IMG/VR virus record: IMGVR_UViG_2541047097_000025
Strand: one strand, 5' to 3'
DNA length: 5,553 bases
DNA from: a virus
Taxonomy: Duplodnaviria > Heunggongvirae > Uroviricota > Caudoviricetes
A program made the position numbers and the translations under genes. The notes below the pieces were generated by a model. It worked only from the letters and a program-made list of their open reading frames with translations. It did no database searches and was not told where the DNA came from. Each line of letters starts with the position of its first letter. Position 1 is the stretch's first letter. Below are positions 4,309 to 5,423 of this stretch, piece after piece.

Positions 4309-4322
4309 ATCACTCTCCTTTA
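4306..4322. repeat. Direct repeat copy 2 (CATATCACTCTCCTTTA) at the junction of the 62-aa and 71-aa genes
   Basis: Same 13-mer as copy 1, in the same position relative to a stop codon and the next start codon. Confidence 0.8.
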
Positions 4323-4498
4323 GTGCGCAAGTGGTTTTTCCAGCGGTTTTGCTCCGCGCTGGGCTTTTTGCAAAAACCACAATCCATCATCCCGTAATAT
4401 TTCATCAACCCCATCCGTCGGTTGCTGAGTCTCACCCACTGCCAGACGCCAGGAGCGTTTCTACGAACTAACAGAATCTTTGCTTTACGGTTTTTCAT
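4310..4498 (-). CDS. Hypothetical small basic protein (62 aa) with C-terminal CxxC
   Basis: Internal ATG 4496-4498 with a strong SD (AGGAGAG) 7 nt upstream, and an ATGA overlap with the stop of the upstream 51-aa ORF. Alternative model: a 109-aa protein starting at ATG 4639 in the same frame, which lacks an SD. Confidence 0.5.
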   Translation of the reverse strand: MKNRKAKILLVRRNAPGVWQWVRLSNRRMGLMKYYGMMDCGFCKKPSAEQNRWKNHLRTKGE

Positions 4499-4650
4499 CG
4501 TTTTGCTCTCCTGCATCTCTTTGCTGCTCGTCGTGCCGCTGCAATACCGGTATGGCGGCGCTTTGGTGTCGGGATGATGTTCTTTGCAATTAGCGCAGAA
4601 GCCCAAAAACGAGTCGGATACGGTAACAAGCCGATACATGCCACACGCAT
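4495..4650 (-). CDS. Hypothetical small protein (51 aa), hydrophobic N-terminus and Arg/Lys-rich tail
   Basis: Not in the ORF track. ATG 4648-4650 overlaps the Ead-like stop as TAATG and has an SD (GAGGTGA) about 5 nt upstream. The stop TGA at 4495-4497 overlaps the next ATG. The last 12 codons use rare Arg codons, so the model is tentative. Confidence 0.4.
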   Translation of the reverse strand: MRVACIGLLPYPTRFWASALIAKNIIPTPKRRHTGIAAARRAAKRCRRAKR

Positions 4651-5423
4651 TACTCACCTCTTTTGATGCGAATGCCAGCGGCGCGCTCGGCTTCACTTTG
4701 TTCCCAAAACCACTTGTGAAGCGCCATAAGCTTTTCGTCAATCGGTGCATATTTGCGATTAAAGTAGGCCTGAGCATCTTTCTCAGATTCGTCCGGTAAT
4801 TCGCCAGGGCCAAACAGTGTGTTATAAATCCATGCTAGTCCGCTCTTAGCGTCGCCAGTTGCCTGCCATTCGATAATGGCAGCCTGCATGACCAGAATGT
4901 TTTTCCCGATTAATAGGTCCAGTTCTTTGTACCGGTTGCGGATGTATGCATTCTCGCTTTGTAATTTTGCGTTGCGCTTTTCTGAGGCTTCAAGTAACGC
5001 CTGCTTATCGCGTAGAGCTTCTTCCAGTTCAGCAACATGGCATTCACTATCAATAAGGTTGTTCTCTGCTGCTTCAAGCTCAACACGCAGCTTCCCAACC
5101 GTAAGCGCAATCTCCTCGTTCTCCTGGTCGCGGCGTTTGATGTATTGCTGGTTTCTTTCCTGTTCATCCAGCAGTGCCAGCACGGTAGCCGGGTTAGCCT
5201 CTGCTATGAATTCAGCGTTTGCATAAGCCTGATCATCTGATTCAATCAGGCAGTTAACATGACATTCCGCAATCACGCCACCGGGTTCTCCTTTCCATTT
5301 TTGGCAAACAAAAACTCCTGTTAAATTGCCGTGCTGGTTAACAGATGTATGCCCTACGATGTAGCTTCCTTTAGTTGCTTTCTCTGCCTTTTCACGCAGT
5401 GCCTGATAGTCAATCTTGCTCAT
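4650..5423 (-). CDS. Ead/Ea22-like family protein with central coiled-coil region
   Basis: The N-terminal region (ALREKAEKATKG...DDQAYANAEFIAEANPATVLALLDEQE) matches the Ead/Ea22-like domain of lambdoid early-left genes from memory. It is followed by a long Glu/Leu/Lys-rich helical stretch. I place the start at ATG 5421-5423 rather than the TTG at 5447. Confidence 0.78.
   Translation of the reverse strand: MSKIDYQALREKAEKATKGSYIVGHTSVNQHGNLTGVFVCQKWKGEPGGVIAECHVNCLIESDDQAYANAEFIAEANPATVLALLDEQERNQQYIKRRDQENEEIALTVGKLRVELEAAENNLIDSECHVAELEEALRDKQALLEASEKRNAKLQSENAYIRNRYKELDLLIGKNILVMQAAIIEWQATGDAKSGLAWIYNTLFGPGELPDESEKDAQAYFNRKYAPIDEKLMALHKWFWEQSEAERAAGIRIKRGE

What the first reader, a model, noticed from the sequence alone, without database searches (positions are those of the whole stretch)
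4310..4813. The 167-aa ORF-track call probably hides two small genes in different frames
The first third of the 167-aa ORF overlaps the Ead-like gene out of frame. At the Ead stop there is a TAATG start with a good SD for a 51-aa ORF in another frame, and that ORF ends in ATGA at an internal ATG (4498) that has a strong AGGAGAG SD. Two coupled small genes fit the SD and overlap grammar of the rest of the operon better than one long ORF. Conflicting evidence: the 51-aa frame uses several rare Arg codons near its end.
Basis: seen in the sequence. Interest (0 to 1): 0.45.

Follow-up and report, generated by a model that had tools for sequence, protein, structure and literature searches.

The report
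Two small coupled phage genes
The 167-codon open frame in this Shiga-toxin phage 933W segment is not a gene; it hides two small, very basic, back-to-back genes (51 and 62 codons) of unknown function, a reading that some public annotations already use, so the finding is correct but ordinary.

Summary
The window is the wrbA-int-xis-ea end of Stx2 phage 933W/VT2-Sakai (100% identical).

On the minus strand:
- The Ead/Ea22-like gene ends in TAA (4652-4650), sharing one base with the ATG of a 51-codon gene "B" (4650-4495).
- B's TGA overlaps the ATG (ATGA) of a 62-codon gene "A" (4498-4310).

Evidence for two genes:
- Both starts have good Shine-Dalgarno sites (-7.1 and -7.4 kcal/mol). All rival starts sit at background level.
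- In relatives that carry 21 extra in-frame bases, the long frame is cut by a stop, while B (58 aa there) and A stay open.
- B was intact in 81 of 81 viral contigs retrieved with a frame-agnostic DNA anchor.
- Indels in B are 21, 3 and 6 nt.
- pN/pS is 0.15-0.36 in B's frame for most pairs, against 1.0-2.7 or more in the long frame.
- Remote 55-aa relatives in other gene contexts keep the motif TG[IV]AAARRAAKKRRR, with third codon positions heavily changed (pN/pS 0.10-0.29).
- 48 of 49 distinct A-family sequences are intact.

The rare Arg codons at B's end are the SD of gene A.

Exactly this model is already annotated in phage F039, and both genes have PHROG families. Function is unknown. Interest is low.

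The parts
4650..5423 (-). Ead/Ea22-like gene (257 aa). Its last codons (AAA AGA GGT GAG TAA) carry the SD of gene B.
   Evidence: Pfam PF13935 E=1.5e-35; annotated in RefSeq 933W and by PGAP.
4654..4661 (-). Shine-Dalgarno site of gene B (AGAGGTGA; AAGGAGGTGA in most relatives).
   Evidence: dG -7.1 kcal/mol with the anti-SD. Conserved upstream of B behind at least three different upstream genes.
4495..4650 (-). Gene B: 51 aa, net charge +14, MRVACIGLLPYPTRFWASALIAKNIIPTPKRRHTGIAAARRAAKRCRRAKR. The start overlaps the Ead stop (TAATG) and the stop overlaps the start of A (ATGA).
   Evidence: phrog_13831 E=1.7e-27. The exact protein is deposited as BDI54366.1/ETD62173.1 and seen on 221 contigs. 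Open in 34 of 34 distinct CDS and 81 of 81 anchored viral contigs. pN/pS 0.15-0.36 for most pairs. Motif conserved with synonymous turnover.
4581..4582 (-). Site of the 21-nt (7-codon, PHVLMAD/PYVLMAD) in-frame indel that separates the 933W-type 51-aa B from the common 58-aa B. In the 58-aa form this segment carries the stop that breaks the long frame.
   Evidence: Alignments.
4506..4512 (-). Shine-Dalgarno site of gene A (AGGAGAG), read in gene B as the rare Arg codons AGG AGA.
   Evidence: dG -7.4. Annotated as an RBS in phage vB_EcoS_P32. Conserved in the alignment.
4310..4498 (-). Gene A: 62 aa, net charge +13, MKNRKAK...SAEQNRWKNHLRTKGE. Its last codons AAA GGA GAG carry the SD of the next gene.
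   Evidence: PGAP WP_000797281.1; phrog_1380 E=1.9e-40. 48 of 49 distinct family CDS are intact at 58-64 aa, and the other five frames contain stops in at least 92%. pN/pS 0.22-0.65.
4093..4308 (-). Next gene in the chain (71 aa, phrog_926). Its ATG lies one base after A's stop, with SD AAGGAGAG at 4313-4320.
   Evidence: PGAP WP_000951705.1; dG -8.7; phrog_926 E=1.8e-36.
4310..4813 (-). The 167-aa ORF of the ORF track (also called as 155, 109 or 68 aa in various records). It is an artefact: A's frame happens to stay open upstream in the 933W lineage because the 21-nt segment is absent.
   Evidence: Rival starts have background SD scores. The frame is broken in relatives. pN/pS is 1.0-2.7 or more. 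ATG4516 is ACG in 36 of 41 distinct sequences.

Best explanation
The stretch 4310-4650 on the minus strand holds two separate small protein-coding genes of the phage early-left (exo-xis/ea) operon. B is 51 aa (4650-4495) and A is 62 aa (4498-4310).

They sit in a head-to-tail chain: Ead - B - A - 71-aa gene - DUF4014 gene. In this chain each stop codon overlaps, or lies one base from, the next start (TAATG, ATGA, TGAnATG). Each gene's SD is written into the last codons of the gene before it, which is why Ead, A and the 71-aa protein end in R/K-G-E. The arrangement fits translation from one polycistronic transcript by coupled termination-reinitiation.

The 167-aa ORF is an accident of the 933W lineage. 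Loss of a 21-nt in-frame segment of B removed the stop that normally closes A's frame upstream of its ATG.

Shown here: gene boundaries, conservation of both reading frames, purifying selection and SD strengths.

Inferred: actual translation, coupling, and transcription from pL.

Both products are very basic (+14 and +13). B is predicted at low confidence to form a short helix plus a long Arg/Lys/Ala helix whose motif, TG[IV]AAARRAAKKRRR, is the conserved core of the family. My weakly held guess is an accessory nucleic-acid-binding or host-factor-binding early protein.
For: - Identity of the region: 100% to 933W/VT2-Sakai.
- SD energies: -7.1 for B and -7.4 for A, against -2.2 to -3.8 for TTG4813, ATG4777, ATG4639 and ATG4516.
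- Open frames: relatives L005-L008 have B as 58 aa and A as 62-63 aa, and the long frame is stopped. Frame B has 0 stops in 34 distinct CDS. A 40-nt DNA anchor that does not depend on frame found 81 of 81 intact B ORFs ending in ATGA on an MKNRKAK gene.
- Indels inside B: 21, 3 and 6 nt.
- Substitutions among near relatives: 15 syn / 12 non in frame B, 2 syn / 25 non in the long frame.
- pN/pS: 0.15-0.36 in frame B for most pairs, against 1.0-2.7 or more in the long frame.
- Independence of context: B keeps the TAATG junction and SD behind different upstream genes, and occurs without an A-type neighbour.
- Remote relatives: they conserve the 17-codon motif while 12-14 of the 16-21 differing bases fall at codon position 3, with pN/pS 0.10-0.29.
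- Gene A: 48 of 49 distinct CDS are intact, the other frames are closed, and pN/pS is 0.22-0.65.
- Existing annotation: PGAP calls A and 58-aa B. F039 calls both on identical DNA. The PHROG families are phrog_13831 and phrog_1380.
- Operon structure: no terminator-like site on the minus strand in 3800-5553. Without B there would be a 151-nt gap in a chain whose other junctions span 1 to 3 bases or overlap.
Against: - No direct expression evidence was found. The Sakai Ribo-seq supplements contain neither peptide, though those cultures were not induced.
- One widespread lineage (P0065, 95 contigs or more) has a 1-nt deletion that swaps B's basic tail for an acidic one. Several rare frameshift or fusion variants also exist. 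The tail is therefore dispensable for prophage persistence.
- Two comparisons show weak or no constraint on B (L089 0.69; L098 1.25, though based on only 9 changes).
- The antisense frame that shares third positions mirrors B's conservation signal, so pN/pS alone does not fix the strand.
- PGAP does not call B on the 933W-type sequence.
- The structure models are of low confidence (pLDDT 67 and 64). No homologue of known function exists. The functional guess is therefore unsupported by any test.
Confidence: 0.9

Rival explanations
1. One long protein (167, 155 or 109 aa) is made from TTG4813, ATG4777 or ATG4639, as annotated for VT2-Sakai, Stx2 phage I and Stx2a_F451.
For: The frame is open in the 933W lineage. 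It is deposited as BAA84291/BAB87940 (155 aa) and BAT31809 (109 aa) and forms phrog_12350.
Against: - The frame is interrupted in every relative that carries the 21-nt segment.
- pN/pS is 1.0-2.7 or more, with 2 syn / 25 non substitutions.
- SD energies are at background, -3.1 to -3.8.
- The first third overlaps Ead out of frame, and that part is absent where the Ead C-terminus differs.
Confidence: 0.02
2. Only gene A is real. The 151 bases 4499-4649 are a conserved non-coding linker (a recombination joint, or a spacer carrying A's ribosome site), and the 51-aa ORF is fortuitous. This is the model of NCBI PGAP, P32 and the 933W RefSeq record.
For: - PGAP leaves the stretch empty on identical DNA.
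- The stretch is unusually well conserved at DNA level among mosaic phages, as joints between modules often are.
- A mosaic breakpoint appears to lie inside B in L089.
- Frameshift lineages exist.
- B is Arg-rich, as spurious ORFs often are.
Against: - Indels are in frame (21, 3 and 6 nt).
- Third-position bias and low pN/pS.
- Remote relatives with about 35-40% nucleotide divergence in the motif still encode the same peptide, next to unrelated genes.
- The start codon changes only to GTG.
- The SD and TAATG junction are kept behind different upstream genes.
- No Rfam hit and no unusual RNA fold on either strand.
Confidence: 0.05
3. The conserved coding signal belongs to a small gene on the opposite (+) strand, for example ATG4574-4666 (30 aa here, 37 aa in relatives, MMLSAIRT.GFAISAEAQKRVGYGNKPIHATRITHLL).
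For: - That frame shares third codon positions with B.
- It is open in nearly all relatives.
- It shows the same pN/pS (0.17-0.65) and similar BLOSUM conservation.
Against: - The mirrored signal is expected, because GCN/CGN codons read as Ala/Arg on both strands in that phase.
- The SD is weak (-4.8) and no promoter-like site lies on the + strand.
- It has no start codon over B's C-terminal half, where the in-frame 3- and 6-nt indels and the conserved motif lie.
- Its ends are not fixed and run into whatever neighbour is present, and L092 has an internal stop.
- All neighbouring genes lie on B's strand in every context.
Confidence: 0.02
4. Gene A starts at ATG4516 (68 aa, MQESKTMKNRK...), as annotated in phage Min27 and the PA-series phages.
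For: ATG4516 exists in the 933W lineage, and the 68-aa form is deposited on 73 contigs.
Against: That codon is ACG in 36 of 41 distinct related sequences. Its SD is at background (-2.2) against -7.4 for ATG4498. Every A-family member begins with MKNRKAK directly on the ATGA overlap.
Confidence: 0.03

Closest known systems
phrog_13831 (58-aa phage proteins of unknown function; e.g. WP_001261538.1, BDI54366.1 of Stx2 phage F039)
   Same: Full-length match of B (E=1.7e-27; 1.1e-41 for the 58-aa form). Same position directly after an ead/Ea22-like gene. The exact 51-aa sequence is already deposited.
   Different: The 933W-type copy lacks 7 residues (PHVLMAD). No function is known for any member.
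phrog_1380 (62-aa MKNRKAK proteins of unknown function; WP_000797281.1)
   Same: Full-length match of A (E=1.9e-40). PGAP annotates exactly 4310-4498 on identical DNA.
   Different: Nothing structural differs. The family is allelically very variable in its core and is often present as two tandem copies, whereas 933W has one.
Translationally coupled overlapping gene pairs (ATGA / TAATG junctions), as in many phage and bacterial operons (textbook knowledge, e.g. trpE-trpD, and the lambdoid nin and ea regions)
   Same: Genes on the same strand, 1- and 4-nt stop/start overlaps, and an SD inside the upstream coding sequence. The same pattern runs along the whole chain 3580-5423.
   Different: Coupling itself was not measured here. 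It is inferred from the geometry only.
Exo-xis region small ORFs of lambda and Stx phages (orf60a, orf61, orf63, orf73, ea8.5, ea22; PMC4195576, PMC10834534)
   Same: Same operon neighbourhood (between exo and xis/int). Small, non-essential, early-expressed genes of largely unknown function. The annotation history is similarly uncertain.
   Different: A and B have no sequence similarity to any of these. They lie promoter-distal to ea22, toward int.
Arginine-rich-motif peptides (lambda N, P22 N, HK022 Nun; from memory)
   Same: A short Arg/Lys/Ala-rich predicted helix in an early phage protein.
   Different: No homology was detected with any library. The motif is C-terminal rather than N-terminal, and no RNA target is known. 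This is a resemblance only.

Membership tests
phrog_13831 (gene B) | Full-length profile match of a ~58-aa protein | tested here: met
   E=1.7e-27, residues 1-51 on profile positions 1-58.
phrog_13831 (gene B) | Reading frame conserved and under purifying selection in relatives | tested here: met
   0 stops in 34 distinct CDS. 81 of 81 copies intact. pN/pS 0.15-0.36 for most pairs and 0.10-0.29 in the motif of remote relatives. Exception: the P0065 frameshift lineage.
phrog_1380 (gene A) | Full-length profile match of a ~62-aa protein starting MKNRKAK | tested here: met
   E=1.9e-40, residues 1-62 on profile positions 1-62; PGAP WP_000797281.1.
phrog_12350 (155-aa long-ORF family) | A continuous ORF of 109 aa or more that is conserved among relatives | tested here: not met
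   The sequence matches (E=5e-113) because the family was built from the same over-extended calls. The frame is stopped in all relatives with the 21-nt segment, and pN/pS is 1 or more.
Translationally coupled overlapping genes | Same strand, stop/start overlap or a gap of a few nt or less, and an SD within the upstream gene | tested here: met
   TAATG at 4652-4648, ATGA at 4498-4495, SD dG -7.1 and -7.4.
Translationally coupled overlapping genes | Downstream translation depends on upstream translation | not testable with these tools
   Needs reporter fusions with upstream nonsense mutations.
zf-C2H2_jaz zinc finger (gene A) | Score above the Pfam gathering threshold and conserved Cys/His ligands | tested here: not met
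   16.4 bits, below the 22.6 cut-off. The Cys and His positions are not conserved among A alleles.
Structured non-coding RNA | Rfam family match, or a fold more stable than shuffled sequence | tested here: not met
   No Rfam hit in 4300-4820 at E of 1 or less. z-scores +0.89 (- strand) and +0.34 (+ strand).
Arginine-rich-motif RNA-binding peptides (N/Nun-like) | Homology to N/Nun, or demonstrated RNA binding | tested here: not met
   No Pfam, NCBIfam, PHROG-with-function or PDB match. Binding is not testable here.

The most novel reading that the evidence does not exclude
B (core motif TG[IV]AAARRAAKKRRR) and the MKNRKAK cassettes (conserved ends, highly variable cores, one or two tandem copies) could be a pair of early-expressed small basic effectors. 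They might bind nucleic acid or a host factor, and they might diversify by cassette exchange, for example as host-takeover or counter-defence proteins. Nothing in my data excludes this, and nothing tests it. pN/pS in the variable cores is below 1 (0.4-0.65), so there is no sign of positive selection.
Probability: 0.12. Interest if true: 0.5.

Novelty: already known. Interest (0 to 1): 0.15.

Why it matters
The value is mostly in annotation hygiene. Identical DNA in this much-studied Shiga-toxin phage carries six conflicting public annotations: no gene, 155 aa, 109 aa, 68 aa, 62 aa alone, and 62 + 51 aa. The reference 933W record has none of the correct calls here.

The comparative evidence fixes the model as 51 + 62 aa. 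It also explains the artefactual long ORF and the PHROG family built on it. Both proteins are early-operon products of unknown function, present in about 10% of complete E. coli genomes (549 of 5426). Correct boundaries are therefore a precondition for any knockout, tagging or proteomic study.

The case also gives a caution. The antisense frame mirrors the selection signal of an Ala/Arg-rich gene, so pN/pS alone can suggest antisense genes that do not exist.

Tried and rejected
- Pfam and NCBIfam scans of A, B, the long ORF and the neighbours gave nothing for A or B. The only hit was a sub-threshold zf-C2H2_jaz match on A. I rejected it because the Cys/His positions vary between alleles.
- Rfam and RNA folding on both strands, run to test an RNA-element explanation for the high DNA conservation, found nothing.
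- The promoter/terminator scan found no + strand promoter and no minus-strand terminator in the region.
- The Ribo-seq literature on EHEC did not help. The Sakai small-gene supplements contain neither peptide nor the neighbouring locus tags. I found no induced-lysogen profiling paper.
- AlphaFold2 with family alignments gave low confidence (pLDDT 67 and 64, pTM 0.29). I did not run a fold search because the matches would be meaningless.
- PDB profile searches gave no hit.
- An HMM search of 1.84 billion representatives returned only 15 hits. The top hit, P0165, is a 2229-aa tandem-repeat artefact and I discarded it.
- I tried to separate B from the antisense frame by pN/pS and BLOSUM scores. 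That failed because the signals mirror each other. The strand was assigned instead from starts, SDs, junctions and gene context.
- A programmed frameshift fusing B to A was considered. I dropped it because I saw no slippery heptamer when reading the junction sequence; this was not formally scanned.
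Full report
**What the window is.** The 851 bases around the finding are 100% identical to Stx2 phage 933W, VT2-Sakai and many other Stx-converting phages. The window starts in wrbA, the 933W integration site. It then runs through int, xis and a chain of small early-left genes, all on the minus strand. The gene upstream of the finding (4650-5423, minus) is an Ead/Ea22-like protein (Pfam PF13935, E=1.5e-35).

**Checking the observation.**
- The 167-aa TTG ORF is 4310-4813 (-). Its first 164 nt overlap Ead out of frame.
- Ead's TAA (4652-4650) shares a base with an ATG (4650-4648) that opens a 51-codon ORF, which I call B.
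- B's TGA (4497-4495) overlaps the ATG at 4498-4496 of a 62-codon ORF, which I call A. A is the C-terminal part of the 167-aa frame.
- AGAGGTGA lies at 4661-4654 and AGGAGAG at 4512-4506.
- A 51-codon ORF is not remarkable on its own, since the window has 61 ORFs of 30 aa or more.
- SD:anti-SD energies do separate the candidate starts. ATG4650 scores -7.1 and ATG4498 scores -7.4, in the best 5-6% of 290 start-like triplets on this strand. TTG4813 scores -3.1, ATG4777 -3.2, ATG4639 -3.8 and ATG4516 -2.2, all at background.
- The rare Arg codons near B's end (AGA TGC AGG AGA) are simply the SD of gene A read in B's frame.

**How the public records annotate this DNA.** I found six different models for identical sequence.
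- No gene between 4381 and 4649, plus an over-long 95-aa call at 4093-4380: 933W GenBank and RefSeq.
- 155 aa: Stx2 phage I and VT2-Sakai.
- 109 aa: Stx2a_F451.
- 68 aa: Min27 and the PA series.
- 62 aa alone: vB_EcoS_P32 and NCBI PGAP in E. coli RefSeq genomes, as WP_000797281.1.

The exact 51-aa protein is in the protein collection on 221 contigs, and the 58-aa form on at least 1000. PHROGs has a family for B (phrog_13831) and one for A (phrog_1380). It also has one, phrog_12350, built from the over-extended 155-aa calls.

**Comparative test of the long frame.** Relatives on P1-like plasmids and in other prophages (80-93% identical) carry 21 extra bases inside B. In all of them B is a 58-aa ORF, the insert adding PHVLMAD or PYVLMAD in frame, and A is 62-63 aa. 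The long frame ends in a stop inside the insert (MYRLVTVPDSFLGFCANCKAVCPDG*). So the long ORF exists only where the 21 bases are missing. ATG4516, the 68-aa start, is ACG in 36 of 41 distinct sequences.

**Evidence that B is coding.**
- Frame B has no stop in any of 34 distinct CDS. The two other sense frames nearly always do.
- A 40-nt DNA anchor that does not depend on reading frame retrieved 81 complete copies from IMG/VR. All 81 have an intact 51-, 57- or 58-aa ORF ending in ATGA (one in ATGATGA) on an MKNRKAK gene.
- Indels within B are 21, 3 and 6 nt.
- Among near relatives, 15 of 27 site-alleles are synonymous in frame B, against 2 of 27 in the long frame.
- Pairwise pN/pS in frame B is 0.15-0.36 for most pairs. 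It is 0.69 for the divergent L089 and 1.25 for L098, the latter on only 9 changes. In the long frame it is 1.0-2.7, or has no synonymous change at all.
- The start codon varies only to GTG.
- B keeps its SD and TAATG junction behind different upstream genes.
- A profile search of 1.84 billion representatives found only 15 hits, so the family is narrow. The hits include 55-56-aa relatives with unrelated N-terminal halves and unrelated neighbours.
- Those remote relatives share the motif R-x-T-G-[IV]-A-A-A-R-R-[AE]-A-[KR]-K-R-R-[RK]. Over these 17 codons, 16-21 of 51 bases differ between the four sequences apart from the closest pair (window-L188: 10, 5 at codon position 3), and 12-14 of them fall at codon position 3 of frame B. 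Across all six pairs pN/pS is 0.10-0.38 in frame B; in the long frame it is 1.1-2.2 for five pairs and 0.18 for window-L188.

**A caveat on strand.** The antisense frame that shares third positions with B is also open, and it shows the same pN/pS and similar BLOSUM conservation. This is expected, because GCN and CGN codons read as Ala and Arg on both strands in that phase. I therefore assigned the strand from other features.
- The antisense ATG4574 has a weak SD (-4.8).
- No + strand promoter-like site is present.
- The antisense frame has no start codon over B's C-terminal half, where the 3- and 6-nt indels and the motif lie.
- Its ends are not fixed.
- Every neighbouring gene in every context lies on B's strand.

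**Evidence that A is coding and starts at 4498.** I collected 49 distinct A-family CDS. Of these, 48 are intact at 58-64 aa, and the other five frames contain stops in at least 92% of them. pN/pS in A's frame is 0.22-0.65. All members begin with MKNRKAK directly on the ATGA overlap. The family has conserved ends, a very variable core with a conserved SNRR/SNHK motif, and often two tandem copies.

**Operon structure.** Under the two-gene model the junctions from 5423 down to 3580 are:
- a 1-nt overlap (Ead/B);
- a 4-nt overlap (B/A);
- a 1-nt gap (A/71-aa gene);
- a 1-nt gap (71-aa gene/DUF4014);
- a 1-nt gap (DUF4014/96-aa gene);
- a 3-nt gap (96-aa gene/DUF551).

Each start is preceded by an SD written in the last codons of the preceding gene, which explains the recurring R/K-G-E C-termini. 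Without B there would be a single 151-nt hole in this chain. No terminator-like site lies on the minus strand. This geometry fits translational coupling on one early-left transcript. Coupling and transcription themselves are inferred, not shown.

**What argues against, or limits, the conclusion.**
- I found no expression data. The Sakai Ribo-seq supplements contain neither peptide, but those cultures were not induced.
- A widespread lineage (P0065, 95 contigs or more; L094-L097) has a 1-nt deletion that replaces B's basic tail with an acidic one and makes B overlap A by 14 nt. Rarer frameshift and fusion variants also exist. The basic tail is therefore dispensable for prophage survival, as expected for accessory early genes.
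- Function is unknown. There is no Pfam, NCBIfam or PDB relative, both PHROGs are "unknown function", and the AlphaFold2 models are of low confidence (pLDDT 67 and 64).
- The B model shows helices at residues 13-25 and 33-50. The A model is helix, three strands, helix.
- Both proteins are very basic (+14 of 51 residues and +13 of 62, counted from the sequences). A nucleic-acid-binding or host-factor-binding role for B's Arg/Lys/Ala helix is a guess from composition only.

**Alternatives considered.**
- Structured RNA: no Rfam hit, and fold z-scores of +0.89 and +0.34.
- Zinc finger in A: below threshold, and the ligand positions are not conserved.
- Programmed frameshift fusing B to A: no slippery site seen when reading the junction.

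**Verdict.** It is not new. The same model is deposited for phage F039, PGAP already calls A and the 58-aa form of B, and both genes have PHROG families. The practical result is a correction for the 933W, VT2-Sakai, Min27 and F451 reference annotations. Interest is low (0.15).

Noticed in passing
window 4310-4498 (-); relatives L005, L010, L014, L015, L053, L078 and others: The MKNRKAK small-gene family (A, phrog_1380) has near-identical 5' and 3' ends and a very variable core. It occurs as one or two tandem copies between B and the next gene. The C-terminus switches with the downstream neighbour (...NHLRTKGE...RRKKGYAVR or ...CRINKEN). This looks like cassette exchange by recombination at the conserved ends.
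   Followed up: partly
window 4093-4380 (-): The 933W GenBank/RefSeq gene L0068/ST933Wp08 (95 aa, GTG start) appears over-extended by 24 codons into gene A. ATG4308 has the strongest SD in the region (-8.7) and is the start used by PGAP (71 aa, WP_000951705.1). L007 has no such extension.
   Followed up: partly
window 2957-3045 (-): The ASCH-domain gene is annotated as 2680-3045, overlapping the DUF551 gene by 89 nt. A GTG at 2964, preceded by AGGAGG, overlaps the DUF551 stop by only 8 nt and fits the operon's junction pattern better. This comes from reading the sequence only and was not tested comparatively.
   Followed up: no
window 4653-4661, 4313-4321, 4096-4104 (-): Ead, A and the 71-aa protein end in R/K-G-E because their last codons (AGA GGT GAG / AAA GGA GAG) are the SD of the following gene. 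The C-terminal residues are dictated by the neighbour's ribosome site.
   Followed up: yes
L094-L097 (E. coli chromosomal prophages), equivalent to window ~4560-4570: A 1-nt deletion (CCGGCACC to CCGCACC) gives a 61-aa B variant with an acidic tail (HQSAAIPVLHRHDEQQRNAGEQNDEKP) that overlaps gene A by 14 nt. It is present on at least 95 contigs.
   Followed up: partly
window 4495-4666 (+): The antisense frame sharing third codon positions with B is open in almost all relatives and mirrors B's pN/pS and amino-acid conservation (AAARRAA reads as AARRAAA on the other strand). It is a concrete example of how an Ala/Arg-rich gene can mimic an antisense overlapping gene.
   Followed up: yes
window 3873-4091 (-): The RefSeq phage records name the DUF4014 gene product 'released from the phage upon host infection'. 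P32 instead annotates it as a putative O-polysaccharide acetyltransferase inhibitor with a transmembrane domain. The RefSeq name looks like a propagated free-text note.
   Followed up: no
window 1-579 (-): The wrbA ORF at the window's left edge begins [12 protein letters not shown] and its start overlaps the stop codon of the integrase ORF by 4 nt (int 576-1910). This suggests that the 5' end of wrbA is supplied by phage sequence at the integration site. I did not check this against an uninterrupted wrbA.
   Followed up: no
P0165: The top hit of the HMM search with the B profile is a 2229-aa protein made of about 30 tandem repeats containing ...YTTRFW.... It is a repeat artefact, not a relative.
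   Followed up: yes
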